DNA of 64,000 bases, from NCBI GenBank assembly GCA_008632985.1, contig QPGO01000167.1, positions 62,001-126,000 on the forward strand, given 5' to 3'. Shown here piece after piece: positions 10,739-52,524 of this stretch; the first letter of the stretch is position 1; each line of letters starts with the position of its first letter. Below the pieces are notes generated by a model. The model saw only the letters and a list, made by a program, of their open reading frames with translations. It searched no databases and was not told where the DNA came from. The stretch comes from Psammoneis japonica (Eukaryota). The position numbers and the translations under genes are program-made.

Positions 10739-11850
10739 ATGGCGGCTGCTGCTGCTCGTGCTCGTGCTCCAACCCAGTGGGATGCGACGAATGAGTCTAC
10801 TGGCGACATTGCGAGGGAGAAAGTGTCGTTCTTTCGATCGCTGTCGGATGAGGAAATCGCTCTCAGAAGCGCTGGTTCACATTTTGCCAGCATGGAAGAT
10901 CTCTGGGGACATGATGGTCTCCTCCAGTTTGGTTGGGCGAACTTTAATGCCACAACTCCTGCCACTGCGCAGGGAAGGTTGTGCAAATCATGTTACAATC
11001 ATCTTGACCAAGTGATTTGGGGAGCTGATGCTGGCTCAGCCACGATGAACCAACGTGGCAACGCTGTCAGGCTGGACACGTTTGGGGACACTCGTTGTCA
11101 GTCAGCGCACTTGCTTTCGCATGATGAATTGTGCCATGAGGCGCATGGCTTTCTTGCCGAGGCAGCAATCAGGATGAGCTTTGATCAACCAACCACTGCA
11201 GGCAAAAAAACATGGAGTGGTTGATCAATTCGCAATGTGAAACGAATGGGGGCGCTGCGCCAACTGGGGACGACTCACCCCGGCGTGGCTGAAGATTCTT
11301 CTGGCCGGTGTCCAAAACTGGCTGCAACGGCTCATCCCTGAAGAGCCATGCATTCAACAAGGTGCATCCACGTGAACAAGGAATGCACTGTGATGTAGAT
11401 GATCCTTCTGTTTTGATTGTGCCTTTGCCGACCTTGCAGCAGGTTGTGGATTGGGCCACAGACACAACGTCTGCTGCCGAGTGCAATGTTGTGGCAGTCA
11501 CCTTTGGTGACAATTCAACAGACACATCTTCCAACCTTGTGCATGCACTGCAAGAGTGCACACCTGCTGAAATTGAGGCTGGCAGATGTCTCTTGGAGAC
11601 TTTCCTCTTGGGATTGGCTGGTTCACTGAAGATGAAAGCAGTGCAAGAAAGCTTCGTGCAAGATGAACTACAAAGTCGAGCGCTGTCCCGACAGTCAAGC
11701 CTTGTGGACAATGTTTTGGACAAGACAACCACCAGGATTCGTGCTCCTTTTTTGTTGCAAGCAGGTGCAGCCATTCATGTTGCGAAGGGTGGGATGTCAT
11801 TGAGAACATCCTTGCCAGACCCATGGCTGCTGCTGTTGAAAGCAGCGACG
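10739..11850 (+). pseudogene. 5' part of a host gene (possible HNH-like nuclease fold) interrupted by the Gypsy element
   Basis: ORF pieces 10739-11224 and 11308-11850 with AHLL..C, NK, LIVP and PDPWLLLLKAA motifs; frameshift and stop; TA-depleted after ~11000. Confidence 0.6.
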
Positions 11851-12282
11851 TGCAGCATGCCTCGCTGCTGGACAACACGGCGAGACCGTGCACAAGCCTC
11901 TTGCACGTGGCAACGCAGTGTTGTTGACATGCACCTGGGAAGCATGACCACAGGAGGGCGTGGCTCTAAGTCTCAGGCAATTCCAGAAGGATGCCAAGAG
12001 AGCATCCGTGTGAAGCACACTGGCCCGTCGTCTGGCCCACGATGGCAGCGTGATTCCACACGATGACATCACTCGTGCATGGCGCGTGATGGCTTGATTC
12101 GCACGATCCATGATGCAAATGCACGATCGACCCAATGCGATCCAAATGCGAACGAGTGGGGATTTGGCAAGATTCCCTGTTCACACGATCCCATTTTCTC
12201 TGCTCTAAACCAGCTCACAATTTTCACAACGACAAAGTCGTAACACATCTTCTTTTTCAGCGCCTGGCACATGCACAGGGCA
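11851..12282 (+). repeat. Gypsy 5' LTR
   Basis: Starts tgcagcatgcc; colinear with 17725-18156; right end uncertain by 5 bp. Confidence 0.9.
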
Positions 12283-13435: not shown

Positions 13436-14569
13436 GCAGGACACACGTAGAATTGCTGCTGAGTGATTGACATGCCGTGGATTTTCCGCCGGCACACAAT
13501 CTGCGTGGTCCACATGGAACATAAATTTGTGTTTGTCTCTGAGGCCATCACATGTCATTGATTTTGCTGAGGCCTCCAATGTGTGTGCACACCAATTCAA
13601 AAGTCTGACAGAACACCCCGAAAGAACTCTGGAATCTGGATAAAAAAATTTCCATTTAACGGTGCGAACAGGGTTTCCCCGAAGCGCTTCTCAAAATGTT
13701 CTCAGATTGGATGCAGCAAAACATCTGCCATTGGCAAAACAGAGTCACTGTCGGATGAACAGATCCCGTGTTCTTCGCGCGCAAACAACACGACAACGCA
13801 CAACAACACCATGGCGAGAAACGCGAGCGCCGTCCCCTCATCTACAAGCTGGGAATGCGAGATGCTGACGCGTTCCAGGTCCAGGTGGGACCTCGCACTG
13901 CTGAACTGTGACATCGACAGTTTTTTGAGTCTTGTCGCATGTCGCGCACGTAGATTTCTACATGATTTTTTCGATGTTTTGTGTCATTTTACGGTGCACT
14001 TGTTGAGAGATCCGTCCAACAACTTTTGACATTTTTTGTTGCAGCGCGATTCCACAATGTCTTAAGAATCGCGCAGGGCAGGCGAAGTTGCAAAAACGTC
14101 GAGTGGCAAGAGGCATGATTGCACCACAAACTTGGCCGTTTATTTGATGTTGAAGATGAACGCATCCATTGATTAAATTCTTGCACTACGGAGCTCGCAC
14201 GTAGAATTCTGCAGGCCCAATGTCACACGGAGTCCCACCCAGGGCTGGAACGCGTCTGCTGTTGAAGTGGTTGGACAACATGCATGCGCTGCATTCATGG
14301 GTCAAGTTGGGTTTCTTCTCGCTGCTTGTTGTTGCGTCATTTTACAACGTTTTGACCCACGCCGTGTTCTTTGCTTTGTTGCTTCTGCTCGTGCGCCACC
14401 AACAGCTCTTCCTGCAGGGTGTGGCCAGTTGCGCGGCTGCATCGAACCCAAACGTGCGCGACCAACTGGCCCCACCCCGGCTGACTCATGCATCAGATGA
14501 GTGCACAAATGAACAACTGAATTGCCATCGTACACGTGTTGCAGGCCAATCCCGCAAACGAGTTAAAAA

Positions 14570-17500
14570 GACTCATCTCACTCCAATCTTGTTCACAGCT
14601 GTGAACACTGAACATGGCAAGGGCAAGACTCAAACCATTAAGGCACTGCTAGATAGTGGCGCCAGCAGCACTCTACTCGACAGTCGACACTGTAAACGTC
14701 TGCGAAGCCATTCAACGGCTGAGACAAACTGGACTACGGTAGCAGGCTCGTTCAGTACGTCTAACGACTGTACCGTTAAATTTTGGTTACCAGAATTATC
14801 CGAAACTGCAGAACTTAAACATACCGTCCACGTACACAACGGAAAGTTGGGCAAGTACGATATGATTATTGGACGTGACATTCTGGAGACACAAGGCATT
14901 GATATTGTCTTCTCTAAACAGATGATAGAGTGGCCATTAGTCAATGGAGAAGTACCAATGAGGCACGTAGATGCTACGGTAGAAACCTCCTTCTATCTTC
15001 AAGATCCAGAAGCGTTACCTTCGGAAACCGACCGGATTTCGCGTATTTTAGACGCTAAGTACGCGCCGGCCTGCCTCGAGGACATAACGCGAGGGGCAAT
15101 AGGAATTTCTACAGTTCAATAAAACGACCTTTTGGCACTATTGAAACGCCATGAGTCCTTATTTGATGGGACATTAGGAGAATGGAAGGGAGAACCCTAC
15201 CATATCCAACTCAAGGAGGGTGTAGAACCATACCACGCTCGTCCGTATAAAGTACCTCGTGCGTACGAAGCTACGCTACGTAAAGAAGTAGAACGCCTAG
15301 TACGTATCGGTGTTCTCAAACGCGTTAACCGATCCCAATGGGCAGCTCCATCATTTATCATACCGAAGAAAGATTTAACGGTACGCTTTATTAATGATTT
15401 CAGAGAGCTGAATAAACGGATCAAGCGATTGCCTTATCCGATTCCTCATATCCAAGATATGCTACTTAAGCTCGAAGGCTTTATGTGGGCTACATCACTG
15501 GATTTAAATGTGGGCTGTTATCATGTCCGATTGGACACTGACAGTAAGAAGCTCTGCACGCTCATCTTCCCGTGGGGCAAGTATGAGATGCAGGTGTTGC
15601 CCATGGGATCATGTGATTCGCCAGACATTTTCCAAGAACGCATGTCAGGCTCATTTGAAGATCTGTCGTTCGTTCGAACGCACTCAGATGACCTTCTCGT
15701 CGTGACGAAAGGCACCCATGAAGATCACCTCAACAAACTTGAAGAAGTTTTGTTGAGGGTCCAGAAAGCAGGACTAAAAGTCATGCAACTAAATCTCACT
15801 TCTGTCAAACCCAATTAGAACACTTGGGTTGTCTGGTTGACAGAGACGGAATGTGACCAACACCTGACAAAGTCGACGCCATCAAGCGAATCGCGACCCC
15901 AACCAACAAACGCGACCCATGCTCATTTGTTGGCATGGTGAGCTGCTGCCGCGACACGTGGATTAGACGTTCTGAAGTCTTGGCTCCGCCAACACGACTC
16001 GCAAGCGAGGCTGTTGAGTGGGAGTGGATGTCCGTTGAAGACGAGGCGCTCGAAACCGTTGAACGGGTGACATCGGATGATGTTTTGTTGTCACATCCTG
16101 ATTTTAACAAACCCTTTGAGATGCACGCTGATGCCTCTAAATGTCAATTGGGAGCAGCCACATCCCAAGACAACAAACCCATCACCTTTTGCAGCAGAAA
16201 GCTCAACAGTGCGCAATTAAATTGTGCAACAACGGAGAGAGAATTGCTCGCCATTGTGGAGACGTTGAAAGTGCAATTGCACGTGCTGATCATAAAAATC
16301 TCACGTGCGCAGCATTCAACACCGAGCGCGTTATGCGCTGGTGCTTGACATGCGAAGAATGCGGCCCCGAATTACGCTGTGTCAAGGGTGCCCACAACCC
16401 AGTCGCTGACGCTCTCAGTCGCCTTCGGCCAGCACCCAGCTTGCCTTCCGAGGCCAATCCGGATGTGAAAGACACTCCATTGAGTCGTCCTTTACACGAA
16501 GCTTTTAATGCAGACGCGCAAGATGAGACATCTCTGCCTGTTAGCTTCAAGCGCATTCAAAAAGCACAACAAAAGGACAAGTGCCTGCTCTCACGAGTTG
16601 AGGACTCGTCCGACTGCTCCATTTGCGCGTGTCGTGGGGGAGGGTCATCACGACAGTTGATCTGTCATAAGGACAAAATCGCAGCACCACAGTCATTGCA
16701 GGTTCCGCCAACTGAATGGCACCACAAGACACTGTGTCATCCAGGTGAGACACGCACGGAAATGTCCATTGCCCAGCACTTCTGCTGGCCCAGTGTGAGG
16801 TCTACGGTGCATTTTACGTGCGTTGAGTGCGATCGATGCCAGAAGACAACACGCCGAACGCAGTGTTGTGGGAAGCCACCAGAAAAGGTCGCAGAGATAA
16901 TTCCATGGGAGACTCCATGCACAGATGTGACAGGGCCACACAAAATTCAAAGACGCGGAAAGGACACCTTGCAATTGTGGGCAGTCACAATGATTGACCC
17001 AGCAACCGGGTGGTTTGAGATTAAAGAAGTGTCTGTGAAACGCGCAGACGTCGCAGCAAACGTCGTAGAACAAACTTGGCTGTGCAGACATCCGTGGCCA
17101 ACCCAGGTGGTTTATGACCGTGGGACAGAATTTGTGGCAGAATTTAGCCAGATGATTAAAAATGACTGTGGGATTTTGAAGAAACCCATGAGCAAACGGA
17201 ATCCACAGGCGAATGCCACAGTGGAACGTGCACGCCAGACACTTGGCAACATGGTGCGTTGCTTTTCAGTGCAGGACATGGAACTGGACGAAGATGACCC
17301 ATGGAGTGGCATCCTCTCCGCAGTGGCCTTCGCTGTTGGAGCTGTGGCACATGCGACCACGCGTGCAAGTCCCGCGCAATTGGTCTTCGGACGCGATGCG
17401 GTTTTGTCTGTTGCCCATCATGCCAAGTGGAAGCACACAGAAACCAGAAAGCAGAAGCTTGTCCACTTAAACAACAAGCGTGAAAATCAGAAATGCAAGG

Positions 17501-17690: not shown

Positions 17691-17724
17691 CCTGTCACTT
17701 GACGGCCCCAATCATGGGGGAGTG

Positions 17725-18156
17725 TGCAGTGTGCCTCGCTGCTGGACAACACGGCGAGACCGTGCATGAGCCTCTTGTGCGTGGCAACGCAGCATTGTCA
17801 ACACGCACCTGGGAAGCACGACCACAGGAGGGCGTGGCTCCAAGTCTTGGGCAATTCCAGAAGGATGCCAAGAGAGCATCCGTGTGAAGCACACTGGCCC
17901 GTCGTCTGGCCCACGATGGCAGCGTGATTCCACACGATGACATCACTCGTGCATGGCGCGTGATGGCTTGATTCGCACGATCCACAATGCGAACGCACGA
18001 TCGATTTAACACGATCCAAATGCGAATGAATGGGGATTTGGCAAGATTCCCTGTTCACACGATCCCATTTTCTCTGCTCTAAACTAGCTCATAATTTTCA
18101 CAACGACAAAGTCGTAACACATCTTCTTTTTCAGCGCCCAGTGCATGCATGGGGCA
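17725..18156 (+). repeat. Gypsy 3' LTR
   Basis: Starts tgcagtgtgcc directly after the PPT; same length as the 5' LTR. Confidence 0.9.
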
Positions 18157-18360: not shown

Positions 18361-21300
18361 CCACTTCATTCACGGTTTGCAGCACAGTGACCAAACTGAA
18401 ATCTGCCTTGTCTTGCCACCGCCCCCTCCTTCCTGGATGGATGATGTGGACATGGTGGTTTCCACCACTGTCACAGGGGACCATCTGTTGCAGCAGCAGT
18501 GGCACCCGCCAGAGAGCTTTTGATCAGAGCCACTGCCACTGCCGTCCACACATGACCTGTTGGTGTGGTGTCTGCAGCATTGTTGCCACAATTTCTCAGC
18601 AACATTGCTGCTGCTGCAGCCATCACCTTCCTTGTCCCACATGCCATTTGTGGCACTGTGGGAATTTCAGCCCACATGCCCCTGTTTCCTTCACACACTC
18701 GCTGTCGTCGTCATCATCTGCACCATCTCCCTCATGATGATGATTGTTGCCTTTGTTGTCAACAAGAAAGAGGTGGTTGGTTTTGCTGCAGCAGTGGGCA
18801 GAGAAAGCAGGAGAGGGAGATGGGGTGCACTCTCCAGATGCAGGCAGAGATCCATTTGACATTGGGCCCACAGAATTTCACGTGCAAGCTCTGCAGCAAA
18901 ATTGTCAGGTGATGAAGGCATTGATGATCACAAACAAAAAAAGATGCAACTCCTCAAAGAACAAACAAACTCATCCATGGTCAAAGTGCACTGTTTCTTG
19001 TTTGCCCAGGAACACTCTCTTCAGACATCATGGAATGCACCTGACTGGCAGGTTTTCATTCTTGTGAACATGCAGAGCAAATGGTCCTTGGCTTTACAAA
19101 ACAGGCAGGGAGTGGCATGATGTGAAACAATTCTGTGGAAGAGCACCCACAGAGACATGTGTGTGTGTGTGTGTGCAACACATGGTGCATGACAAAAAAA
19201 GTTCATGTCACATGTCAGCACTGCAAGCTCCAACCTGGGGCTGGAACATGTCATGGGGCAGCCCACTGCGTTCCTTCCTTCGATCAGAATGAATCAATCT
19301 GGCCAAGGCTGTGGATTGGCCTCATGCTGGAGCTGCTGCAAAGAACACTTTGGCCTGCAATGCCAGCTGCTTTCAGCAAGCCCAACATTTTGATTGACCT
19401 GGTGTGCAGTCTTCTGGGTTCTGTCTGTCCACCTCACTGCTTTTGTCTGCAATCTTGTTGCTGTGTTTGTGTGCAACCCAAACCATTGTGGCAAAAGCAA
19501 AGACATGCCTCAGCTTGGCTCACTCTTTGGAGTTGTCTGGTTTGCACAAATTGTGTTGTGACATCAACAGGTGCTGCCTGTTGCACATCACAAGTTTGAA
19601 GTTCATTGAGAACTTCCAGGTGAACCACAGCCGCCAAAGCAGCCAGGGCAAGTGTGCAGCGAGTGGCACAGCAGCGTTGTGTGGCCAAAGCAAAGATGTG
19701 CTTCAACTTGGCTCACTCTTTGGAGTCATCTGGTTTGCACAAATTGTGTTGTGGCAACAACAAGTGCCTGCAGCAAATCACAAGTTTGAAGTTCATCAGG
19801 AACTTCCAGGTGGACCACAGTGCAAGTGCAGCGATTGGTGCAGGAAGCCTCCTCTTTGCAGAGAGGGCTTCCTTTTGGCGACATCCATTTGAAAATGCGG
19901 AAGAAGCCGAAAGGGCAGTCAAGTGCCCAAAAGAATGCTTGTCATGGATGGCAAATTGCGTTTCTCCCCCTCTGCCTGATCTGGTTCGAGCCCACATTTT
20001 TGAACACTGCACGTCGCTGCCTTGTCCTGCCTTGTTTTTTGAGCCAGGCGATTTGTGCTTGCAGGTCGTTTGGTCTGACGACGATCAGAACCGGATCAGT
20101 TTGGCAGACTCATTTTACATTGCTCGAAAGACAGTGGGTTGAGCTTTTTGTTGATGCAGTTCTTGCCGCATCCCGTTCTCCCGGCACTGGTTGCATTTTT
20201 TCACTGTGGTGGTTCTGTCGTTGTCAAAGTGTGTGCCAGGCAGATGTGTTTTCATCCCAGGTGAGAAACTTTTGGACACATCACGAGGTTTTCTACGTGT
20301 TTCTGCATGAGACGTACATTTGGCACCAAAAATCTTAGTAAAAAACGAGCTCCATGACAGCAAAAACACATTTTTTTCCATGTCTCGAACCACAAACCAC
20401 AATTCGCGCAAACCGAAAATGGCACCATGCCGTCGCCATGAACTCGTCCATTCTTGCACCAATGGATGTTGTGACTGAGAAGGCAAGAATGCCGAGACAG
20501 GTCAACAAGACAACGCTCAATGCGATGATGTGGTTGAAAATTTGATCTTTGTTTTTTGTTGTGCCTTGTGGATGGCCTTTTGACTCATGATGTTTTTGAT
20601 GCCTCTTTCTCTCTTCCTCCGCTTGCGAAGCAGGATTCTCATCAACGCGCTGCTCCATCTGCTTGACACCGGATGCTGACAATGAAGAATGTTTCTGTGA
20701 CACGTTGCTGTGATTCTTGTGATGCATCGTCCGCACTTTGAGTCGTCATGGACGACGCTTTTGGGTCGCGCGACAACATCAGATTTCGCCACCGACAAGA
20801 GAATCGTCATGTGTTCTGTTTTGAGGGTGTGTGAGGATAAAGAATCTCAGATGCAAGTGTGACAGTTTCATTGTTGTAAAGTAGAACAACACCATCAGCG
20901 ACATCTTGGTGTTGCAGCCATTTTGTTTTATTCTAAGATAGAACTGGTCATTTTGAGCGGTGAAATTTTGTCAACATTTCATCTTTAACTCTGCCCAGGC
21001 ATGTCAAATCACACAACAACCAGACACACATTGAACTTTGACGCTGCCATTTCAATCCCATTGTTTTATTCACTCAAGCATCCCACACAGGTCAACAAAT
21101 CAGTCGATCTTTGAAATGGCCGATCGCGCAAAAAAATCACGTGCGAAGTCAGTTCCCCCGATTTTTCTCGCGCAAATGACAGAGTTAGAACACCGTTCTT
21201 TTTTGGTGTGAGCTCTTTGTGCAATGAACAATGCGTGCATTCTTTCAAAGCAGTCAGATTCGGTGAAAGAAACAGTGGAACAGTCTCTCAAATGCACCAG

Positions 21301-21877
21301 AACAACAACAACGAGCAGATGGCTGTCAGCTTCACTCCAAAAAATGCCACTTTCGAGACAGCGCTTTTCTTGCACGCACCCTTCAACCAATGAGAACAAT
21401 GGCTGGCTTTTCAAAATAAACATGTCTGTGGAAAGAAGAAACGAAAAATCGGGGGAAAGTCCAGTCAGATTTGCTCACACAAAAAGCACGGCGACGGAAA
21501 AGGGACAGATGAAACGTCTCACCTCCGTGTGCGCGTTTCTCACCTGGGATGAAAACACATCGGCATGTCATTTTGCACGCCGCTTTAGAAGGATGGGATT
21601 CTAACCTTGCAGCACAATGTGGTCATGTTGAAATGTTCACCGAATCCGCACTGACTCTAGAGAGCAGAAAAGATGATTTCGTAAAATCCCTGCAAGCGAC
21701 TGGCTGTGACTGCCAGCAAAATTCATTCTGCAGCACGCTTTGACAGAAAATGCGACAAAGCATTGACATGTCGCATTGCTGGTGCAGCTTCCGAAGACAC
21801 TCGATTGTGGCCACAGCTTCCTGCAAAACGGGGCTCCTGCGTTGTCGGGATCATCGCGTGAATTCATTGCCAAAAAC
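18360..21877. repeat. TpA-depleted inter-element block with dispersed repeat, tandem repeat and gene relics
   Basis: TA largely absent; 18880-19250 is an inverted relative of 7620-7960; ORF relics at 20115-20810 (-) and 21224-21743 (+). Confidence 0.6.
19487..19821 (+). repeat. Direct repeat, two ~145-bp copies at ~193-bp spacing
   Basis: cttggctcactctttggag..tctggtttgcacaaattgtgttgtg..atcacaagtttgaagttcat..gaacttccaggtg occurs at 19487-19631 and 19680-19821. Confidence 0.85.
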
Positions 21878-22252
21878 TGTCAGCCTGTCTGTGCCTGTCG
21901 TGTGATGGACAGACTGGATGCGGATGATGGCCAGACCATTTAGATGGACGAGCAGATCTCTCTGAGATCTGCTTCTCACTTTCTCATCTACCAGCACTCA
22001 TGTTGTCACAGTCCTGGTGCTTTGGGGAGTCTTTCACACCTCTGTCACTGTCGACCTTCTTCGGCACTCTGTCAGGTTGTGGCCATGTGCTGTGCCACAG
22101 ACCTCTGCGCCAAGCTTTCTGTCTCGATTCATTTGTTTTGTGAGCCGATCGAGCGAGCCTCATCGTCTGATCCAACAACTTTTTGTCTCGCTTTCCCGGC
22201 ATTTTTCACGACCGTAGAAACACACCAGATTTCTGCGCGTGCATGACCAAAA

Positions 22253-24366
22253 ATGGCTCCACCCACTAAAACCATGGCGTCTCCCGACCTTGCAAAAGCC
22301 GCTCCTGCGTCAATTGCAGAGATCTGCTGTGAATTTGAGGCACATGCAACGACACCACATCCACATCAGTGCCTGAGTGCGGTTCGCACAGACTCCACAA
22401 CTGATCTCGATCGATTTTTTGACGATCCAGAGCATGTGCAACCCAAGAACGATTTTGCGGACATGCTTCGCGATTGTTTCATCCATGAAGCATTTCCACC
22501 TTACACAGCTGATCCCATGGATGTAGAATCAATCAAGACGATTGTGGATCAAGCCCTGTTCAGACTTCTTGACCCTCAAAGGCCTCATCCAGTCCGCCTG
22601 ACAACTCTGATCTCATCAAAGATGATCAAGACGAATCTTCAGAACGGCGAACAATCTCTGTTCATCATCACATCTGCCCAACACATGCATGTTGATCCAG
22701 ACATGACATGGAACTGTCGCAATTGGAACGAGTTCTCTCTTGCACCCCACCAGAAGAACCAGCAGCCTCCGTCTTCTTCTCAGAAACCCACAGGACCTGC
22801 TGCATTGACTGTGACTGACTTGGTGACTGCACTCAACACATGCACGTCGAGCCATGCTCCGCCTTCTACAGCTTCTGCTGAGACATCTGGAAGCACCACA
22901 TCTTCCGCAACATCGAAATACCTCTTCAATCCGAACACACTTCCCACAGACGTTCGTGCACGCTACGACCACAAAGAAGACGGAAAAGTTGCTCTTCAGA
23001 GCTCTCTCGTCCCTTGCGACCATGGATTCCGTCACTGTGTTGATGCATCCGATCGCATCATCCTCAACGATGGCACCCTTTTCATCATGAGCTCGACTCC
23101 TGATCAGAAAATGCTGTTCAGAGAACCTCCTGCATGTCATGACGACTCTCCCCCTGGGATGCGAGCATGGCACCAAAATCTCCAACGTCATGCCTTTGAT
23201 TCAGGTTGCTGCATGCATCCCCTGTGGCGTTTTGCTGAGGATCACGGTGGTGAGAAGGGTTTTGAGATCGGCAACGGCAAGGATGATGACTTACCTCAAC
23301 GCATGTACGTCCACTGCAAGGAAGCTCAGAGTTCTCTCCACAAAATCCTCTCCAAGTCGGACATGTTCCCCAAGAATGGCAAGCATCATCGGATTGTTGC
23401 ATCGTGCCACGGCAACGGATGCAAGGCTCTAAAGCAGATCATCTACGAGAATCACCCTGCCTTTGATCATGATGCTGCTGGACTTGTTGATTCCATCCCA
23501 TCCAAGGCAATCAATCTTCAACGGACTGCCACATGTTCTTCAATGATTTCCCACAGCTGCGTGCCTGCATTTTTGACACGGACTCTACGTTGAACGATCC
23601 ACGGGAGATGACTGTCTTTGTCAAGAACACCAAGTGCTCCAAGTTCTTGTCACATGCTGCCAGAGATGAACGGAAGTCTCCAGCCATGCAGAAGAAGCAC
23701 ACGGATGCACAGATTGTCAAGACTCTCTCTGATTTCCTCCGCCAACCGGATGGTCCATCCCTTCCCACTCGCATGACGCAATCCAACCCATGCCGTGCAT
23801 GGAATCGAGCAGATGCTTCTACACGACGCACACCTGCCAATGTCAACTCCACCCAGATCCCTGAGACACCCCTCCGTGAACCAGTTGATGACTCTGCCAC
23901 TGAAGATCCTGGTGCAGAATCTCCACCTCCGGATGCCTTTGACACTCTTTGCGACGAATTGCACGAACTCGAGATCCCATCTGCGGACGAAGATCGAATC
24001 CTTCACCATGCACACTCGGCTTCAGTCTGTGGGCTGAAAGTCACTCCGCATGAAGCCTCCAAGAAACCATGTCTTGTCTGCTCCGGAGAGCATTTGTTTG
24101 ATGACTGTCCAGTCCTGAAGAATGGCCCGTACATCAAGGGCTTCCACATCCGTTTTTGTCAATTCTTAAAATGGGAAGCAGCTGTGCGTGCTTCTGAGTT
24201 CCAAGGACCCCAAGGTTTGCTCCCACCTCATCATGACAATCCTGAAAATCCGCCTCCGTCTGGTGCTCAGCCCTCGGATTTTCAATCGGGCCGTCGCAGC
24301 TGGTTTCGGATCTCCGACGCTGCCCGTCATCTCCTCACCGAGACAAGACCAATGTCAGCGGGATGA
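22253..24366 (+). pseudogene. Copia 1 gag-like region
   Basis: Two overlapping ORFs (frameshift ~23500); zinc knuckle CLVCSGEHLFDDCP. Confidence 0.75.
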
Positions 24367-27300
24367 CCTTGAAAGAGGGACTAACCGTCTCGTCATCTGC
24401 CGCTGCAGTGCCTCTTTCCTCACAGATTGATGTGGATGCCACCCCTTCCACCTCCACGAAGACATCTTTTGACACCAACACGTTGCCCGACGATGACCCT
24501 GCTCCTCAAGAAGCCTCCGTTGATGCTGCTCATGTTCCGGATCCTTTGGAACAGGGGAGGGAAGACCCAGAAACACCGGTTTTTGAGGAACATGTTGATC
24601 TCACCTGTGGTGATGTGGCTGTTGAAGACGGTTTTGCTGCTGTCAATTCTGTTCGTGTTGCTCCGATCGATCCACACCAGGCAAATCACTCACCTGAGCC
24701 GGAACTGCTGCGATCCACTTGTTCTGTCAATGGGGTAAACTTTGCTCCGAATGAACGTTGTGCTCAGTTGGATGCAGGTGCCGATGTTGCGTGTGCAGGC
24801 GAGCGTGACCTCCTCCATCGCTGCCAAGACTTCACTCCATCCCATCCCTGTCCCCTTGCCGTCAACCTGGCCCTTGGCCACCAAGCTGTCCCAGTTGGAT
24901 TCGGCTGTCTTCGCATCCCTGCAGAGAACTCTGATGGCTGTGTTGAGGTCCGTGCATGCCACCACCCACAGATCCAATCTACGTTGGTTGATGAGTGACT
25001 CCTCCTTCGTCAAAATGGTTCTCGTCACACAGATTGCAATGTCGATTGCATTCTCAAGTTCCATGATCTCGGCACCTGCAAGTTTGTTGCACGACACCGA
25101 TTGCGCAAGAGTCAGGATGTTGTCATTCATGGAAAATTGATCAACGGAAAATGTTTCACTCACCCTCTCATTCTCCCGGAATCTAACGACGAACTGGATG
25201 CATCTGTCGAGCGCCTCAAGACTGCTGATCCTTCTTTTGCCGATGAGTGTGAAGCAGTCTCTGCGCACATGATTGAGACTTGTCGCACCCACCAACATGA
25301 AGCTCTTCGTGATGAACGCAAGTTGATCCCCCGTGTCTGTCAAGACATTCCTTTCGAGAAGCATGCTGAGAAGAACATTCCTGTCCAGTCTCTCAAGGCT
25401 GACACGGAACGTCTTTTATGGCATCAGCGACTTGGTCATCCGAGTGATCACTGCCTTTGTCATGCCCATGAACATGTTGATGGCGTCCCCAAGTTTGCCC
25501 ACGGAACTTCTCCTCTCAACACTTGTCCCACATGCACATGAGCCAAGCAGACGAAGGAACCTGCCGGTCCGAACACTGCTCTTGCTGCCACCCAACCATG
25601 CCAAGGCCTTGCGATTGATTTTTCCTTCTCTGGCCTGCGCTCCAAGAACTCGGAGCACACCAAGGACTGTGTTGGATTGAATGGCGAGACTTGTTGGATT
25701 GCTGTTTATGATCATAAAACGAAGCGTCTCCATGGTGCGACTTGTGTCTCCAAGGCAACCCCTTTGAATTGGATTCGCCACTTTCTGGAAGAGCACTCAC
25801 CAAAATGTCCAGACAAACATGCATTTGTGGATCAAGGAGGTGAATCACATCAGAACCCAGAAGTTGCCGACTCTTCGAGGATGACTTTCATTGTGCAATT
25901 CGTCCTGCGGGAAAAGATGCTTCAAATCAGAGTGGCCCAGTGGAATGCAGTCATTTGTCTGTTGCCAATGCCATCCGGGCGATGCCAATCGGTGCCGATT
26001 TGCCCATCAAATTCTGGCCCCATGCTTTTCATCATTTCATTCGAATCAACAACGCTTTGCCATCCCGCGGACAACCTGCTGCTCCGATTGCTCTCGCTGC
26101 TGGTCGGAAGGATGATTTCAAGAACATTCGTGCGTTTGGTTGTCGAGTGTGGGTGCGTGCGTCGAATCACCGCCCAGCGAAATTTCGGTCTGTCTCTCGC
26201 AAGGGAACATTCTCAGGCTGTCTTCCGGACACTGCCAAGAACATTCTTTGGTGTGACACTGAGACATCGCGTGTCAAGCTTGCCAAGCACATTCGCTGCG
26301 ATGAGGGCATGAATGATCTTCCCCACGACTCTCTTCCGCCGAATGTGGTTCACTTGGAACGCACTCAAGATGGCAAGGCTTTGCCTGCCAAGACTGAAGA
26401 AACCACGATGGATGAGCTCCACTTTCATGGGAATCCCTTTGCCAAGACCATCAAGCATGTGATGAAGGGACCATTTGCTGATCCCACATTTGGACTTTCC
26501 TTGGCTGCGGACAATCTCTGTCGGCGAGTGTTTGTCTCTGACACCAAGCGTGGTTCTCCTGCTGCGCGTCTTTTCTCCTCTTCGAAGGCCACCCGTGACA
26601 AGATCAAGGGTGTGTGCATCGCATCGATTGATGATCATCCTGTGTCACGGCAGAGGATGCCATCAAACGTTTTCAGCAAGTCTGTGATTCTGGCAAGACT
26701 CATTTTGAAATTGAATTCGCGCCGGAACGTCGCCTGGACTCTCAAGCCCTACAACGTGCTCTGATGGAACACAACACACATGCACCGAGTCCTGATCCTG
26801 ATGATGAGCATGTTCCGGAAATCACCAACGCCGATGTACGTGCTGTTGCTGCCATCCGCCTGCCCGACATTGATTTCTCCGAAATGGATGATGACGATGT
26901 CCCTCCACCATTCTTTGTTGATTGTGACAATGGTGTGGTCAATGTCTGTGCTGTCTCATCTCACGCTGTTGCTCCAGAGGAACAAGCCTTGGGTGCTTTC
27001 ACCCGCCATTGCCTCAAGAAGTTGGACACGTGGCCTGAATGGCATGCAGGTGAATTCAAACAACTTGACCAGTTCCATGAGTTGGGGATGTTTGGTGCAC
27101 CGATTAAACGACCCAAGGATGCTGTCGCACTTCGTCCACATTGGCAATGTGACCTCAAGCATGATGGCACATGGCACTCTCGACAGTGCTGTGATGGATC
27201 TCCCCGTGCTGCGTCGACACTACATCGACTCTGCTCGACGCACTCATCCTGTGTTGAGCAGCCTGTCCAATGCATGTTTTTTGCCCTTGCTGCGACCATG

Positions 27301-28667
27301 AGCCATCCTGTCTTTGGCAGGGATGCTCGTGATGCCTGTGCACACTCTCCACGACCGTCACACCCCGTGTGTGTTGCCACAGACAAGGCATGTGCAACCT
27401 GGTGCAAGGCTCGGTTTGGTGTTGACTTGGACAGGAGCATGGCACTCCCGATGCAACATGCACTTCAAGGACACCCAGAAGCCGGCGTGCTCTGGGAGAT
27501 GCACATCAACGGCATTTTGTCTGATGTGAATCTGCTTTTTCGCAACACTGCTCATGACAAATGCACCCACTCTGCTGCTTTTGAAGGACACAAGATCTTG
27601 CTCCTCCGTCAGGTTGATGATTTCTCTCTCGCTTGTCCTGAAGAGTCCACTGTGATCAAGATCTGTGACAAGATTGGCAAAGCTCTCCAATTGGAATCGG
27701 AAACCTCTCCGCCGTTCAAGCATCTTGGCATGATTGACGAATTCAATGGTGCAGACATTCATCAATGCAATGACTCCATTGGCATTGCTGTTCACAGCTG
27801 TGCAGATCGGGTTTGTGCCTCGCATGGTTGGTCGACACCGACGGACGAGGAACTTGACGATGACTGCAAGGCTGCGCCACTGCCTGTTGACTCTGTTCGC
27901 GAACTGTGTGATGCCATTGGCCCAGCTGAAGGAACCCCGGAGCATGCGGAACTGCAACAAGCTGCTGGTTTCGGCCACCGAACTCTTCTTGGCGAATTGT
28001 TGCATGCGTGCGTTGTCTGTCGACTGGACACTGGGTGTGCTGTCACTGCTCTATCCAAGTTCTCGACCTGTCCTGCTGTGGTTCACTGTGACGCGCTCAA
28101 AGGAATGTGCAAGTGCCTTCGACGCACTGGACATTGGGAGTTGAACTGCAGGAAGCCCACCCGAGACTCCAAACTGCCCACCTGCCCCTTCGAACGTCTC
28201 ACTCCGGACCCGACCTTACCGTCGTTCCCTTGTCCTGCGTGTGATCATCAACTCGTTGCTTTCTTGGATGCTGCTTGTGGCAATGACCTCCGCAACCATC
28301 ATTCTACGACTGGCTGTGCTTGCATGCCAGCTGGTGCTGCTGTGTCTTTTCAGTGCAAGACCCAATCGGTGGCCGCTGCGAGCTCTACGGAAGCTGAATT
28401 TTGTGCTGCTGGAACTGCTGCCAAGCATGTCCCATGCCTTCGTCACGTTCTACAAGACCCAGGCTTCCCTCAGACGGAGCCCACCCGACTGAGCGATCCC
28501 GTCACATTGAGACTCAGTTTTTTGTGATCCAAGAATGGAAGGAAGCGGGCAAGATTGTCGCGAGACATGTTCCTGGCATTGTCAACCCTGGCGATGACCT
28601 TGCCAAGGCCTTTGGCTGGGTGCCACACGCTCGCCACGCTCGACGCATGATGGGACACCACTGTTGA
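24363..28667 (+). pseudogene. Copia 1 pol
   Basis: QLDAGA protease, LWHQRLGH..C..C, VDQGGE integrase, ALQGHPEAG and RQVDDF in RT, SSTEAEF, RSRHIETQFF, NPGDDLAK RNase H. Confidence 0.9.
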
Positions 28668-29084
28668 TGTTTTTTTCCGCGGTGGCCTCCCTGCTGCGCA
28701 TTGCCCTCTTGTTTGATGGTGCATTGGGCATGGACACTTCTCGTGTCCTGTGTCTGGTCTCTCTATTTTTTCCTCACATCATCCCCATTCTTTGGTTTGA
28801 TCTGCGCTGTTCTCTGTGTTGAGACATTGCAGATCAGGGGAGGGTGTCAGCCCATCTGTGCCTGTCGCATGATGGACAGACTGGATGCGGATGATGGCTG
28901 GACCATTTGGATAGACGAGCAGATCTCTCTGAGATCTGCTTCTCACTTTCTCATCTGCTGGCACTCGTGTTGTCACAGTCCTGGCACTTCAGGGAGTCTT
29001 TCACACCTCTGTCACTGTCGACCTTCGGCATTCTGTCAAAAACCACAATTGTGAAGCATGGGGTCGGCTGTCGGTGCTTGGCCC

Positions 29085-29185
29085 TACTCCAGTAGATAGC
29101 TGGCTAGAAGTGGCTCTAGAGCAGAGCACCGGTAGAGCTCTAGAGTAGAGTGCCGGCACCGGTAGAGAGTAGAGGGCCCTACAGT
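29085..29185. repeat. CTAG/TAGAG-rich low-complexity tract
   Basis: tagatagctggctagaagtggctctagagcagagcaccggtagagctctagagtagag... Confidence 0.7.
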
Positions 29186-32259: not shown

Positions 32260-32638
32260 NNNNNNNNNNNNNNNNNNNNNNNNNNNNNNNNNNNNNNNNN
32301 NNNNNNNNNNNNNNNNNNNNNNNNNNNNNNNNNNNNNNNNNNNNNNNNNNNNNNNNNNNNNNNNNNNNNNNNNNNNNNNNNNNNNNNNNNNNNNNNNNNN
32401 NNNNNNNNNNNNNNNNNNNNNNNNNNNNNNNNNNNNNNNNNNNNNNNNNNNNNNNNNNNNNNNNNNNNNNNNNNNNNNNNNNNNNNNNNNNNNNNNNNNN
32501 NNNNNNNNNNNNNNNNNNNNNNNNNNNNNNNNNNNNNNNNNNNNNNNNNNNNNNNNNNNNNNNNNNNNNNNNNNNNNNNNNNNNNNNNNNNNNNNNNNNN
32601 NNNNNNNNNNNNNNNNNNNNNNNNNNNNNNNNNNNNNN
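32260..32638. other. Assembly gap (N run)
   Basis: Run of n characters. Confidence 1.
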
Positions 32639-39121: not shown

Positions 39122-39319
39122 GTCGAATAGCATTATTTGGCAATCTAGTGCTAGCGTAGATTTTAATGAGGCTTTGAAAGTGATTAGATTGAACTTTTGA
39201 AGCTTTGTTGGATGCTAATTAGTTTCAGTGAGCGACTGTTTGTTCCACCCGACACATTTGACTATTTTGCAGTAGTAGATTTAAGGAGAATGTGGCCGTT
39301 CAATGCTGGTATCGCTCCA

Positions 39320-42619: not shown

Positions 42620-43135
42620 AATGATTCTTTTGTTCTTTGTGTGAGCAAATGAATTGTGATTGTCCTTGAAGCATGTTGACTGTTGTGGTTTTCTGAGACA
42701 CACGGTCTTCTCGCAAATCGCAAGAAACGAGCTGTTCTTCTGTTTTCAGTGCTGGTCCCAGAGAAATCAGACCACCAATGCCAATGTGTGGGGAACACCA
42801 GTCAAGGCCATTTACTTTCCTTTTGCTTGTTTGGGTCTGAATGTCATCATGGGCAACCCTTGCTTGGACATGCTCTTCGCGGAATGGTGATTGCGCACGT
42901 GTTTTACTTTTTGGTGGACGTTCTTCCTGCGGTTCAAGGAAAGACAATTTTGCACACTCCACGCTTTTTGATTGATTTCTTTGGAGTGGGAGAATACACG
43001 GCACCTCCGCCTCCGGTCAATCCCGCATTTCAGCCGAACCGTGGTGGCATACATCAGGCCGGTGGTCAACAGAAACAGCCACGGGGTGGTGGACACAACT
43101 GGGGTGGAGGAGGACAACGGCTTGGGACACAATGA
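42620..43135 (+). pseudogene. 5'-truncated derlin duplicate
   Basis: Aligns to 38625-39121; lacks exon 1 and most of exon 2; frameshift ~42875; first ~270 bp TA-mutated. Confidence 0.9.
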
Positions 43136-46466: not shown

Positions 46467-49400
46467 TGACAGGATTTGAACAGGATTTGGGTGCGCACGA
46501 AATGTCGCGCGCTGTTTGGTTTGCCGCGCACAGTTTTGTGTGCTTTAGTTCCGTGCGTTCGCGCGCGATGCAGTTTGCTTTCGAGCCACAAGGCTCACAA
46601 GAACAATGACAGCAGCCCGATTGTGCCGACTTGCACGTCTTTCGGCTCCTGCAACGGTCTCTGAGTGGAGACTCATCTGCTGTTTAGACAGCAGCAAGGA
46701 GTTGTTGTTTGAATTCTTGCCATTTGCCTTCAATTTCTGTCAGGTTGACAGTCTTGCTCATTGTCAACCCATTGAGCAACCGCCGTCGTCGTCGTTGATT
46801 TGCCGACGATGCCATTTCAATTCTGCGTGGATCTCCGCACATGTTCTGCATGCATCAGCAAGTCCACGCGCATTCAATGCCAGGCACTGGCAGGAAGTTA
46901 ACGTCACCATCAAGTCTCCTTGCCGCTGGACATCTGGATTGATTGTGCTGCCTTTCATCGCTGAAGACATGCACTCAACGGTCATGTCCAAGTCTGTCCT
47001 TGATCCTCATCCCTTGATGTGCCCATTCATCGGTTAACGGTCAAGAACCCTGCATGTTCAAGGATCTTCATCGCTGAAGACATGCACATGCACACATCTT
47101 CACTGCCAAGAACTTGCACCCACTCTTCGGACTGCAGTTTTGCCGCCACTCTACAAGCACACCGAGTCCATTGCACCTGATCTGCCCAAGACTGCTGGTG
47201 CTCTGCAATTCTGCTGGGTCCACAAGGACAACTGTGAGAGCAAGCAGCCGTGATTGCAGCCCACGTTGGGGCGAGGGTGTTTTCCCACATTTGTTCGTTC
47301 GTCCACAGTGCCTGACGCCTGCGTCAACTGGCCAGCCTGATCGGGAAATCCAACCGACATAAAATGAGAACGGTTCGGGGGTCTTGTCCACCTCTGGTCA
47401 GCTTGCCTGCAGGGGCTTGCAACCCGCTGCTCCGCTCGCAAGCAACCCAAAGCGCCACTGGCTGCGGGCTCGGATGTGCCAGCACAACTCTACGGACCGG
47501 ATGGGAAGTTCAGCACTTGACAACGAACGGGACAGCACAGCCCGGCGACTTCTGATTTCAAGGCAGTTCAAGATTTCAAGTCAAGTCCATTTCAAGTCAA
47601 GTCTGTTCTCACCCAAGTTTCAAGTCCACCCTTGCTTCCCAACAAGAATTGCTTGTCCTGACACCACTTTTGTCTGCCATGGTTCTCACTCGTCAGCAAC
47701 AAACCGATGGTTTCGAGCACGTTGTTGGAACCGTGCTTGCCCAAGGTGCTGGGAGCCCTCTTCGTTTGGCTTTGGCCCAAGACGGCACGGACTCGCATCA
47801 AGAACTGTTCACGTTCATGCCGTCCCAAATCGACTTGCTTGAGCACGACAACAGCACCAATGTGATCCCTTTGCCCCGCGGTTATGAGAACATGTCAGCA
47901 GCTCTGGTCAGTCTGTGCATTGTCAAAGCACATGAAGGTCTTGACGTTGCCAATGACTCCTCATTGTTCACGCATGACGAGTTCCTTGCCTGCCGCCTCA
48001 GCCCCGACTGCATGTCTTCTGTGTCCGTCGGCAGCTCACCCCTCGCACCTCCGCATGTCACCAACCCGACCAAGGCACGCGACCCGGTGCGAGACTTCAA
48101 GCGAGGCATCAAGCGTGACCCCACCGCTTTCACGGCTCTCAAATCTGACAAGCAGTGGCACACTTGGCACACCTCACTTGTGGCACAAGCCCGTGCCCAA
48201 GACATCGAGTGCATTCTAGACTCGTCGTACAAACCGACCAGCCCCGAAGACAAACTGCTCTTTGCTGAACAGCAAAAGCACATGTTCGCCATCTTCGAAT
48301 GCATCCTTCTCACCGACAAGGGCAAGGCTCTCATTCGCGAAAATGTGGGGTCTTCTGATGCCCAGACCGTCTGCCGCGCCTTGTCTGAGCATGCGCTCAC
48401 CTCCACCCGCGCATCTGTCGAGTCCTCCACCTTGCTCACGTGCCTTGCCACCGCACGTCTTGGTGATGGCACTTGGAAAGGTCTGACCCACGGGTTCATC
48501 CTTCATTGGCAAGATCAGTTGCACAAGTGCGAGGCACTCATCCCGGCCAGCGACCACTTCTCTGAAGGACAGAAGCGCGTCATGCTCGAGAATGCCGCAC
48601 ACCCTGTCGAGGAACTCCGTGCTGTCAAGAACCAAGCTGATCAGCATCACACGCAGAGTGGCAAGAGCCTCACACACGATCAATGCTGTGGCTTGCTCCT
48701 CTCCGTGGTGGCTCAATGCGACAGTGTGTTTCAACCCAAGACAACACCTCGAGCTCCCCGACGTGCCATGTGCGCACACAACGTCCACTCCGAGGAACCG
48801 TCCGACGATGTGTTCTGCAACATTGACAGCGACATTGACGTCCTTCAGGCCAATGCTGCCCACACCCGTGGTCCCAGCCTCACCGGTGACCAATGGAAAC
48901 GTCTCCCTCCCGACCACCAACGGATTTGGGATTCGTTGCCCCATTCCTCCAAGGCGATCATCCTCGAGCATTCTCGTCTGCCTCCCCGCGACCTGCGAGC
49001 CAGCAACTGCCATGAGTCCATTACGGCCAACCTTCATGACCAATGCCTTGGGAGTGACGGTGATGTCAACTTGTCCAACACGACTCCTGCTGACTCTGGT
49101 GACTCCGCTCCAAATGTGGGTGCCACTTCAGATGATCCCATCCTGGCGCACCTCACCAAGCGCAAGCCACTGCCACCCGGTGATCTGCAATGTCTGTTGT
49201 CTCCTAACCAAGCCCCCAACGCCAGTCGACCAGGGCCATCCGCCGCTCCCTCTACCCCGCCAGCTCCTGCCGATGACATGGAACTTAACGGCCGCACTTG
49301 CCGCCGCATTGACAACCACAATGTCATTCACTCTGCCTCTGCTCATCGCTCCACACGCGCTGGTGCTCCAGTCGATCGTGGGGCCAACGGCGGCATTGCT

Positions 49401-52400: not shown

Positions 52401-52524
52401 GATTGTGCTGACTTGCACGTCTTTCGGCTCCTGTGATGGTCTCTGAGCGGAGACTCATCTGCTGTTTAGACAGCAGCAAGGAGTTGTTGTTTGAATTCTT
52501 GCCATTTGCCTTCAATTTCTGTCA
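46467..52524 (+). mobile_element. Ty1/Copia LTR retrotransposon 2 (diatom CoDi-like), internally deleted
   Basis: 276-bp LTRs 46467-46742 and 52249-52524 (TGACAG..CTGTCA), TSD CTCGC/CTTGC, PPT ggggag. Confidence 0.95.
47679..52248 (+). pseudogene. Copia 2 gag-pol
   Basis: FKRGIKRD, VDRGANGG protease, LISDRAQVE and SEPHQQHQNFAERR integrase, KHDGRHKA*LVA, HVDD (expected YVDD), CGSEFVAAR, GDNKSVV, NPADILSK; deletions near 50590 and 51770. Confidence 0.92.

What the first reader, a model, noticed from the sequence alone, without database searches (positions are those of the whole stretch)
21878..29038. Copia 1 LTR pair shows the mutation is post-insertion and strand-symmetric
LTRs are identical at insertion. 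Aligning 21878-22074 with 28845-29038 by eye gives 11 substitution sites plus one 3-bp indel. Nine sites are TG/CA, TA/TG or TG/TA, for example gccTGtc/gccCAtc, ggcCAga/ggcTGga, ttTAgaTGg/ttTGgaTAg, tcTAcCAg/tcTGcTGg, ggTGcttTGg/ggCActtCAg. Three still keep TA in one copy, which fixes the direction. The 5-bp TSD is still perfect, so the element is young and its LTR divergence is mostly this one mutation type. LTR-based dating would be badly inflated.
Basis: seen in the sequence. Interest (0 to 1): 0.85.

Follow-up and report, generated by a model that had tools for sequence, protein, structure and literature searches.

The report
TpA-erasing hypermutation of diatom retrotransposons
In this diatom DNA the transposons, but not the neighbouring genes, have had almost every TA step rewritten to TG or CA after they inserted, a repeat-directed mutation that runs opposite to fungal RIP and that no paper I could search describes.

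Summary
The two LTRs (21878-22074, 28845-29038) differ at 11 sites plus a 3-bp indel: 6 adjacent TG/CA doubles, 3 TA/TG, 1 CA/CG and 1 C/T. All 17 changed bases are transitions, and the AAAAC target-site duplication is intact.

The pattern is not chance: 0 of 200,000 random placements of 17 transitions gave 6 doubles. Two more LTR pairs in the window repeat it; a duplicated host gene does not.

The direction is TA to TG/CA, not CG to TG/CA:
- At 25 conserved tyrosine (TAY) columns, Copia 1 has Cys 15, His 7, Tyr 0, while 33 of 46 Arg columns keep Arg.
- CpG decay predicts about 0.5 discordant doubles; 20 are seen.
- A host paralogue pair shows 14 TA-to-TG/CA changes against 0 the other way where one copy lies in a TA-poor domain.
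- An unrelated 35-locus metagenomic Copia family runs from TA-rich, Tyr-rich copies to TA-free ones.

The loss is confined to repeat domains (55% of the window) and spills 50-260 bp into flanks. It hits sites one by one and on either strand. It inflates LTR divergence about 14-fold.

The enzyme is unknown. The six LTR sites themselves could not be polarised from family copies. I found nothing like this in print.

The parts
21873..21877 (+). 5' copy of the target-site duplication AAAAC
21878..22074 (+). 5' LTR of Copia 1 (TG...CA ends)
   Evidence: contig across the junction
22075..28844 (+). Internal region of Copia 1. It carries gag-pre-integrase, SH3_retrovirus and RVT_2 signals in Copia order and is broken into several frames. 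Tyr is 0-1.1% in its ORFs, and 0 of 25 conserved Tyr columns keep Tyr.
28835..28844 (+). Polypurine tract (caggggaggg) abutting the 3' LTR
   Evidence: read directly
28845..29038 (+). 3' LTR of Copia 1
29039..29043 (+). 3' copy of the target-site duplication AAAAC
20940..29096 (.). TA-poor domain holding Copia 1 and the repeat upstream of it (0.55 TA per 100 bp against 4.78 outside the domains). It ends within about 50 bp of the 3' LTR.
11850..12282 (+). 5' LTR of a Gypsy element. Against its partner it shows 34/34 transitions, 11 TG/CA doubles and 4 TA/CA singles.
   Evidence: Pfam protease, RVT_1 and integrase between the LTRs
17724..18156 (+). 3' LTR of the Gypsy element (target-site duplication not resolved)
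46467..46742 (+). 5' LTR of Copia 2. Against its partner it shows 16/16 transitions, 3 TG/CA doubles and 2 TA singles.
52249..52524 (+). 3' LTR of Copia 2. The target-site duplication reads ctcgc / cttgc, one CpG-to-TpG change.
42625..42880 (.). Start of the second copy of a duplicated host sulfatase segment, lying inside a TA-poor domain. At 14 sites the first copy (38630-38900) has TA where this copy has TG or CA; there are none the other way.
14531..15582 (+). TA-rich island (77 TA) inside the otherwise TA-poor Gypsy element; Tyr is kept here

Best explanation
After integration, transposon and repeat DNA in this diatom undergoes a DNA-level hypermutation specific to the palindromic dinucleotide TpA. 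At each TA, one of the two A:T pairs becomes G:C, giving TG or CA according to which strand was hit. The site is then no longer TpA and stops changing. The process acts site by site, on either strand, until nearly all TA are gone. It is confined to repeat (probably silenced) domains with a spill of about 50-260 bp, and it runs beside a slower, ordinary CpG decay.

The Copia 1 LTR differences are this process caught in two copies that were identical at insertion. Coding capacity is destroyed by missense changes (Tyr to Cys/His, Ile to Thr/Val) rather than by stop codons.

Shown: the spectrum, the direction, the post-insertion timing, the restriction to repeat domains, and the lack of clustering.

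Inferred: that an enzyme tied to silent chromatin does this. My preferred chemistry is base modification at TpA followed by mispairing at replication. That would be either adenine deamination to inosine by a TadA/ADAT-like or other deaminase, or thymine oxidation to 5hmU/5fU by a TET/JBP-type dioxygenase. I cannot separate the two. The confidence given is for the shown part (a real, post-insertion, repeat-restricted TpA-to-TpG/CpA mutation), not for the enzyme.
For: Spectrum. Three LTR pairs cover 903 aligned bp and have 67 mismatched bases, all transitions: 29 TA-type sites (20 TG/CA doubles and 9 TA singles), 13 CG-type bases and 5 others. The host sulfatase duplication has 132 transitions among 223 mismatches and only 2 CA/TG doubles.

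Direction:
- (a) Against 60 aligned homologues, 23 Tyr columns read C14 H5 F3 S1 Y0, and the RT ORF has 0 Tyr in 630 aa against 4.2% in homologues.
- (b) By tblastn of 120 homologues, 25 Tyr columns read C15 H7 F2 S1, while 46 Arg columns read R33 H6 C3 K2 L1 W1.
- (c) The host ammonium transporter keeps 6 of 6 conserved Tyr. Host ORFs have 2.4-5.8% Tyr, and transposon ORFs 0-1.1%, rising to 1.3-3.0% only in the two ORFs that overlap the Gypsy island.
- (d) My arithmetic, 42 counts: 46 shared CpG and 13 CG-type singles give p about 0.12 per copy, hence about 0.5 CpG-derived discordant doubles against 20 seen. The TA model gives p about 0.86-0.92 per element and fits the single-to-double ratios.
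- (e) Host paralogue edge: 14 TA-to-TG/CA against 0 the other way, and 14 against 10 over the rest of the duplication.
- (f) Independent family of 35 metagenome loci, only 64-72% similar to Copia 1 at DNA level. TA odds run from 0.83 to 0.00 with CG nearly constant, and TA odds correlate with Tyr% at r=0.92. In 22 non-reference copies, 62 reference TA sites read TA 334, TG 418, CA 339, CG 12, other 49; 71 reference CG sites read CG 797, TG 199, CA 87, TA 0, other 169.

Domain restriction. The window TA odds ratio is 0.376. TA-poor domains cover 35.3 of 64 kb at 0.33-1.46 TA per 100 bp, against 4.78 elsewhere. There is a sharp edge at the 3' LTR. The metagenome contigs L001, L033 and L008 show the same restriction.

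Non-processive. Runs tests find no clustering of kept and lost TA and no TG/CA strand runs. There is no flanking-base preference: 5' neighbours C8 G8 A7 T6.

Repeat status. Summed contig depth is 1,800-6,500 over the element against 57-73 in the flank.
Against: - The ancestral state at the six LTR doubles was not read directly, because the family-copy letters at those sites were not among the 40 rows shown.
- The simple model expects about 0.5 TA shared by both LTRs and 4 are seen, so some TA are refractory or newly made.
- Among sites where nearly all family contigs differ from this copy, most are CpG-type: 7 sites in the element where the family has CG and the window TG/CA. Only one shows family TA against window CA (25846). 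At 22387-8 all 13 contigs read TG where the window has CA, which independent hits on TA would not predict.
- In the metagenomic family 26% of TG/CA-discordant copy pairs are at CpG-type sites.
- A TA-rich island inside the Gypsy element (14531-15582) is not explained.
- No enzyme, modification or chromatin data exist for this genome, and no whole genome is held.
- The run that confirms the sequence may be the assembly's own.
Confidence: 0.85

Rival explanations
1. Ordinary 5-methylcytosine deamination: the TG/CA-discordant sites were CpG at insertion and were deaminated on opposite strands in the two LTRs.
For: CpG decay does occur here. There are 13 CG-type differences in the three LTR pairs. 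Ten of 46 conserved Arg columns read His, Cys or Trp. At 7 sites in the element the family has CG and this copy TG/CA. In the metagenomic family 26% of TG/CA-discordant pairs sit at CpG-type sites.
Against: 46 CpG are still shared by both LTRs of the three pairs and only 13 are changed in one copy. Independent decay therefore predicts about 0.5 discordant doubles against 20 seen (my arithmetic). It cannot turn 22 of 25 conserved Tyr codons into Cys/His. It cannot empty the elements of TA while CG stays at 4.7-5.3 per 100 bp. At the host paralogue edge the unmutated copy has TA, not CG, at the 14 sites.
Confidence: 0.04
2. Sequencing or assembly artefact: a modified base at TpA in repeats is miscalled strand by strand (TG from one strand, CA from the other), or repeat copies were mixed during assembly and polishing.
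For: A strand-specific miscall at a palindromic site would give exactly TG/CA/TA mixtures. The window has a scaffold gap (32260-32638). The TA-rich island in the Gypsy element could be an assembly chimera. The public run that agrees with the window may be the assembly's own data.
Against: Contigs of depth about 60 that agree with the junctions to within one letter are not what noisy long reads give. The same signature, graded from 3% to 100% loss among copies, is present in 35 contigs of two separate metagenome assemblies of another Copia family. Host genes on the same contigs are untouched. The platforms of these data are not stated in any output.
Confidence: 0.05
3. The process is real but passive. 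TpA in compact, untranscribed chromatin suffers a lesion or replication error that is repaired in genes but not in repeats, so there is no dedicated defence enzyme.
For: The loss is gradual across copies. It is unclustered and random with respect to strand. It follows domains rather than element boundaries, spilling into a host duplicate. These features fit a chromatin-wide rate difference as well as they fit an enzyme.
Against: The size of the effect: about 2.2 hits per TA site against 0.13 per CpG and about 0.006 per other dinucleotide in the LTR pairs (my arithmetic). The purity: all transitions, no AA-to-AG, and no flank preference. I know of no spontaneous lesion with this specificity. 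Single-copy DNA keeps 4.78 TA per 100 bp.
Confidence: 0.2
4. RNA editing before integration: ADAR-like A-to-I hyperediting of transposon transcripts, fixed by reverse transcription.
For: A-to-G preceded by U/T matches the known 5'-neighbour taste of adenosine deaminases (recalled, not from a call). There is a weak excess of TG over CA on the sense strand (15:7; 418:339).
Against: Both LTRs of an element are copied from the same template, so RNA editing cannot make them differ, yet three LTR pairs differ in this way. T-to-C on the sense strand is nearly as common as A-to-G and is interleaved with it. A non-transposon host duplicate is affected where it lies inside a TA-poor domain.
Confidence: 0.02

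Closest known systems
Repeat-induced point mutation (RIP) of ascomycete fungi
   Same: A DNA-level, post-integration, transition-only mutation of repeated DNA. It permanently disables transposons, depends on dinucleotide context, hits both strands and leaks a few hundred bp into flanks.
   Different: The direction is opposite. RIP turns CpA/TpG into TpA and enriches TA; here TpA is erased and TG/CA enriched (TA odds 0.04-0.19 in the elements). RIP creates stop codons; this process removes TAA/TAG and kills by missense. RIP changes come in strand-coordinated runs during a sexual phase; here hits are unclustered and graded. A 2.4-kb two-copy host duplication is spared. All 20 papers listed by one search (139 met its criteria) concern the fungal C-to-T process.
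CpG decay of methylated transposons (5mC deamination)
   Same: It produces TG and CA, is symmetric between strands, is restricted to silenced repeats and inflates LTR ages. It is present here as a second, slower component.
   Different: The substrate is CG, not TA. It cannot explain Tyr-to-Cys/His changes or the loss of TA while CpG is largely kept.
Hyperediting of retroelements by APOBEC (C-to-U on cDNA) or ADAR (A-to-I on dsRNA)
   Same: Enzyme-driven, context-dependent transition clusters that disable retroelements. ADAR gives A-to-G with a 5' U/A preference (recalled).
   Different: Both act before integration and on one strand, so both LTRs would carry the same changes. Here the LTRs differ, both strands are hit and non-transposon DNA in the domain is affected.
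Thymine hydroxylation (5hmU, base J) of repeats in dinoflagellates and kinetoplastids
   Same: It is a repeat-associated modification of T. [quoted passage not shown] Oxidised thymines can mispair with G (recalled).
   Different: That legend reports no sequence motif. No mutational footprint is described in what I saw, and no such base is known to me in diatoms. This is only a mechanistic lead.

Membership tests
Ty1/copia LTR retrotransposon (diatom CoDi-like) | Two direct LTRs ending TG...CA, flanked by a 5-bp target-site duplication | tested here: met
   197/194-bp LTRs, TGTCAG...CTGTCA ends, AAAAC on both sides
Ty1/copia LTR retrotransposon (diatom CoDi-like) | Integrase upstream of reverse transcriptase (Copia order) with an RVT_2-type reverse transcriptase | tested here: met
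   gag_pre-integrs (ORF 24999-25541, E 1.4e-06), then SH3_retrovirus (ORF 25844-26764, E 2.1e-08), then RVT_2 (ORF 26635-28527, E 0.00025, below Pfam's cut-off). phmmer finds diatom RVT_2 proteins at E down to 3e-200.
Fungal RIP | C:G to T:A transitions, chiefly CpA to TpA, enriching TpA in repeats | tested here: not met
   TpA is depleted, not enriched. Tyr codons became Cys/His. The paralogue polarity is 14:0 for loss of TA.
Fungal RIP | Restricted to repeated DNA, with leakage into flanks | tested here: met
   TA-poor domains coincide with transposons and high-depth DNA and spill 50-260 bp. However, a two-copy 2.4-kb host duplication is not affected outside the spill zone.
Fungal RIP | Dependence on a RID-type cytosine methyltransferase homologue and a premeiotic stage | not testable with these tools
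   No genome is held for this window.
5mC deamination at CpG | Ancestral CG at the sites that now read TG or CA | tested here: not met
   Not met for the bulk of sites: about 0.5 doubles expected against 20 seen (arithmetic), the Tyr columns, and TA in the unmutated paralogue. Met for a minority: 13 CG-type differences.
ADAR/APOBEC pre-integration editing | Changes on one strand only and identical in both LTRs | tested here: not met
   The LTRs differ at 29 TA-type sites in three elements, and TG and CA are interleaved.

The most novel reading that the evidence does not exclude
Some diatoms possess a dedicated genome-defence activity that edits A:T pairs to G:C at TpA in silenced repeat chromatin. 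It would be a natural DNA 'adenine base editor' or a thymine-oxidising mutator, and a chemical mirror image of fungal RIP. It disables transposons by missense saturation and reshapes more than half of repeat-rich regions.
Probability: 0.5. Interest if true: 0.95.

Novelty: new variant of a known kind. Interest (0 to 1): 0.88.

Why it matters
Repeat-directed hypermutation is so far known as cytosine deamination (RIP, APOBEC, CpG decay). A process that removes TpA by A:T-to-G:C changes would need a different chemistry and enzyme class, possibly of use as a natural base editor.

It also has practical consequences:
- LTR-identity dating of diatom transposons, as used in recent comparative work (passages seen in 10.1101/2025.10.24.684338), would be inflated about 14-fold in this window.
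- TA-free DNA loses TAA/TAG stops, so it produces long spurious ORFs, for example 1232 aa at 47556-51254 with no Pfam hit.
- Mutated copies fall below family cut-offs (RVT_2 21.2 bits against a 31.6 cut-off), so repeat and gene annotation is distorted.

The same signature in metagenome contigs shows it is not a quirk of one assembly.

Tried and rejected
The direct polarisation of the six doubles therefore failed. No RNA holder was listed.
- I examined 32 of the 40 rows. I left out 8 rows upstream of the element that had low share in X1 or were seen only in X2.
- The search of earlier findings: nothing for this genome or these words; one call failed on word syntax.
- LTR pairs in the metagenome loci: only one LTR-like pair was found (L033), probably from different elements and still TA-rich. 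It gave no replicate of the pair test.
- Flanking-base motif around hit TA: none found. Strand runs and clustering: none found.
- The Gypsy target-site duplication could not be resolved.
- Dinoflagellate origin with hmU was my first guess. It was dropped when the transposon and host proteins matched diatoms.
- Literature: ten searches and passages of six papers gave no description of TpA-to-TpG/CpA mutation of repeats. One search was badly framed and says little. One search failed on syntax.
Full report
**The observation.** The two LTRs of the element at 21878-29038 align over 194 bases. They have 17 mismatched bases, all transitions, and one 3-bp gap. No TA is common to both LTRs, while five CpG are. 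The element has TG...CA ends, a polypurine tract before the 3' LTR and an intact AAAAC duplication on both sides. Seventeen transitions placed at random on the LTR give on average 0.28 TG/CA doubles and never more than 4 in 200,000 trials, so six is not chance.

**What the element and the organism are.** The internal region carries gag-pre-integrase, SH3_retrovirus and RVT_2 signals in Copia order. Its reverse-transcriptase ORF finds 247 relatives, and those that carry names come from the diatoms Nitzschia, Fragilaria and Cylindrotheca (best identity 52%). Host genes in the window are an ammonium transporter, a family-3 GPCR, sulfatases, GH81 and others. The transporter matches diatom proteins at about 63% identity. 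No genome is held for the window.

**The pattern repeats in the window.** A self-comparison found two more LTR pairs and one duplicated host segment.
- The Gypsy pair (433 bp) has 34 of 34 transitions, with 11 TG/CA doubles and 4 TA/CA singles.
- The Copia 2 pair (276 bp) has 16 of 16 transitions, with 3 doubles and 2 TA singles.
- The 2.4-kb sulfatase duplication has 132 transitions among 223 mismatches and only 2 CA/TG doubles.

Together the three pairs have 29 TA-type sites, 13 CG-type bases and 5 other bases in 903 bp.

**Direction of the change.** I could not read the family state at the six LTR doubles, because read laying printed 40 of about 1,600 variant rows and none lay in the LTRs. 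Four other tests all point to TA.
- *Tyrosine codons.* These are TAY. At 23 columns where at least 60% of 60 homologues have Tyr, the element has Cys 14, His 5, Phe 3, Ser 1 and no Tyr. The 630-aa ORF has no Tyr at all, against 4.2% in homologues. Over the whole element, tblastn of 120 homologues gives 25 Tyr columns as Cys 15, His 7, Phe 2, Ser 1. The 46 Arg columns keep Arg 33 times and read His, Cys or Trp 10 times. So CpG decay exists but is much weaker.
- *CpG arithmetic.* 46 shared CpG and 13 single CG-type changes give a per-copy loss near 0.12. That predicts about 0.5 doubly hit, discordant CpG sites, against 20 doubles seen (my arithmetic). The TA model gives per-copy losses of 0.86-0.92 and fits the ratios of singles to doubles. 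It does under-predict the 4 TA still shared by both LTRs.
- *The host paralogue.* The second copy of the sulfatase duplication begins inside a TA-poor domain. Over its first 260 bp or so, 14 sites read TA in the first copy and TG or CA in the second, with none the other way. Over the rest of the duplication the counts are 14 and 10.
- *An independent family.* A Tyr-poor homologue from the protein search led to 35 metagenome loci of one Copia family in two assemblies. This family is only 64-72% similar to Copia 1 at the DNA level. Its copies range from TA odds 0.83 to 0.00 while CpG stays nearly constant. TA odds track Tyr content at r=0.92. I used the seven TA-richest copies as reference. In 22 other non-duplicate copies the 62 reference TA sites read TA 334, TG 418, CA 339, CG 12 and other 49. 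The 71 reference CG sites read CG 797, TG 199, CA 87, TA 0 and other 169.

At the same site different copies carry TG or CA, and outgroup proteins carry Tyr, so the polarity cannot be reversed. To be fair to the rival, 26% of TG/CA-discordant copy pairs in that family sit at CpG-type sites. One of the six Copia 1 doubles could therefore be of that kind.

**Where it acts.** The window's TpA odds ratio is 0.376, CA/TG is 1.41 and CpG is 0.79. The loss is patchy: 35.3 of 64 kb lie in domains with 0.33-1.46 TA per 100 bp, and the rest has 4.78. The domains coincide with the transposons and other repeats. Over 20500-29183 the summed depth of laid contigs is 1,800-10,700, against 57-73 in the single-copy flank (the tool warns that this is not a copy number). 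Host ORFs have 2.4-5.8% Tyr, and the ammonium transporter keeps 6 of 6 conserved Tyr. Transposon ORFs have 0-1.1% Tyr; the two ORFs that overlap the Gypsy island have 1.3% and 3.0%. The edge at the 3' LTR is sharp, with the next TA 47 bp outside it. Elsewhere the domain reaches about 200-260 bp beyond an element. Long metagenome contigs show the same restriction: L001 and L033 are TA-poor only over the element, and L008 has 4 TA in 5.5 kb with normal CpG.

**How it behaves.**
- Hits are single: after one change the site is no longer TpA and rarely changes again (CG at 12 of 1,152 site-copies; no Tyr-to-Arg).
- TG and CA are interleaved, kept and lost TA are not clustered, and flanking bases do not matter.
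- Copies show every degree of loss from 3% to 100%, uncoupled from divergence at other sites. L005 has 1.8% other-site divergence with 38% TA loss, and L006 has 1.4% with 5%.
- From the LTR pairs I estimate about 2.2 hits per TA site, 0.13 per CpG and about 0.006 per other dinucleotide (my arithmetic).
- Because TAA and TAG vanish, the elements are full of long false ORFs (28 of at least 100 aa over Copia 1). Inactivation is by missense changes, not by stop codons.

**Real or artefact.** A strand-specific miscall at a modified palindromic TpA would look the same. Against this, contigs of depth about 60 agree with both junctions to within one letter. The signature also occurs, graded, in two metagenome assemblies of another family, with untouched flanks. 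The platforms are not stated in any output, and the agreeing run may be the assembly's own. I therefore keep 5% for this rival.

**Mechanism.**
- *Shown:* a post-integration, DNA-level, TpA-specific A:T-to-G:C change restricted to repeat domains.
- *Inferred:* an enzyme bound to silent chromatin modifies one base of TpA, either adenine to inosine or thymine to 5hmU/5fU, and replication fixes G:C.

Two leads bear on the enzyme, and neither is evidence. A stramenopile-only deaminase fused to SAM and Tudor arrays was predicted in PMC3239186 (passages). 5-hmU is enriched over repeats in a dinoflagellate, without a motif (PMC11071213, a legend passage). A passive repair gap in heterochromatin remains possible, at about 20%.

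**Known or new.** The process works like RIP in outcome, but RIP's defining chemistry (CpA to TpA) was tested and is not met, because the direction is opposite. Ten full-text searches and passages of six papers showed no description of such a process. The searches on diatom transposons returned no such report, and passage searches for 'deaminat' and 'dinucleotide' in two of the papers (PMC2806351; 10.1101/2025.10.24.684338) found neither word. I did not read whole texts or supplements.

**Consequence for dating.** Jukes-Cantor LTR distance is 0.078 with all sites and 0.0056 without TA-type and CG-type sites, a 14-fold inflation.

**Verdict.** This is a new variant of repeat-directed point mutation with an unknown enzyme. 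Interest is high.

Noticed in passing
window 14531-15582: A TA-rich island (77 TA in about 1,050 bp, Tyr kept, covering protease and RT) with sharp edges inside the otherwise TA-poor Gypsy element. It could be a conversion patch from an unmutated copy, a segment that escapes targeting, or an assembly chimera.
   Followed up: partly
window 38630-41043 and 42625-45043: Tandem duplication of a sulfatase gene segment (2.4 kb, 88.8% identity) with an ordinary mixed substitution spectrum. Only its first 260 bp or so in the second copy carries the TA-loss signature.
   Followed up: yes
window 2844-4991, 6950-8813, 18501-20000, 41886-43136, 52525-54062, 58734-59626, 63001-64000: Blocks poor in both TA and CpG (down to 0-9 CG per 500 bp) and very rich in TG/CA, with no similarity to each other at E 1e-10. 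They are probably older repeats in which both decays have run to completion.
   Followed up: partly
window 47556-51254 (+) and many frames over 21800-29100: Very long ORFs without family hits (1232 aa in Copia 2; 28 ORFs of at least 100 aa on both strands of Copia 1). They arise because TAA and TAG have been erased, and they are a trap for gene prediction.
   Followed up: partly
window 22387-22388: All 13 laid family contigs read TG where this copy reads CA, which independent hits on an ancestral TA would not predict.
   Followed up: no
window 46462-46466 and 52525-52529: The Copia 2 target-site duplication reads ctcgc / cttgc, a single CpG-to-TpG change in the flank.
   Followed up: partly
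L008, L024, L029 (metagenome loci); proteins P0032, P0107, P0305, P0337, P0349, P0369, P0378: Public environmental sequences of diatom-type Copia elements with no or almost no TA / Tyr and excess Cys. Nine of 118 homologues from the first search have at least 20% of conserved Tyr replaced by Cys/His, and 7 of 144 representatives are Tyr-poor and Cys-rich.
   Followed up: partly
window 579-2461 (-): The ammonium transporter gene is read in two overlapping ORFs (579-1613 and 1544-2461), implying an intron or a frame shift.
   Followed up: no
window 32260-32638: A run of 379 N (scaffold gap) just upstream of the cytochrome P450-like ORF (32853-33992).
   Followed up: no
Copia 2 LTR column 87-88; Gypsy LTR start near 11847-11849 / 17721-17723: Adjacent double transitions of AC/GT type, and a three-base stretch differing only by transitions just outside the aligned Gypsy LTR. 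Their origin (GpC or ApT) is unclear.
   Followed up: no
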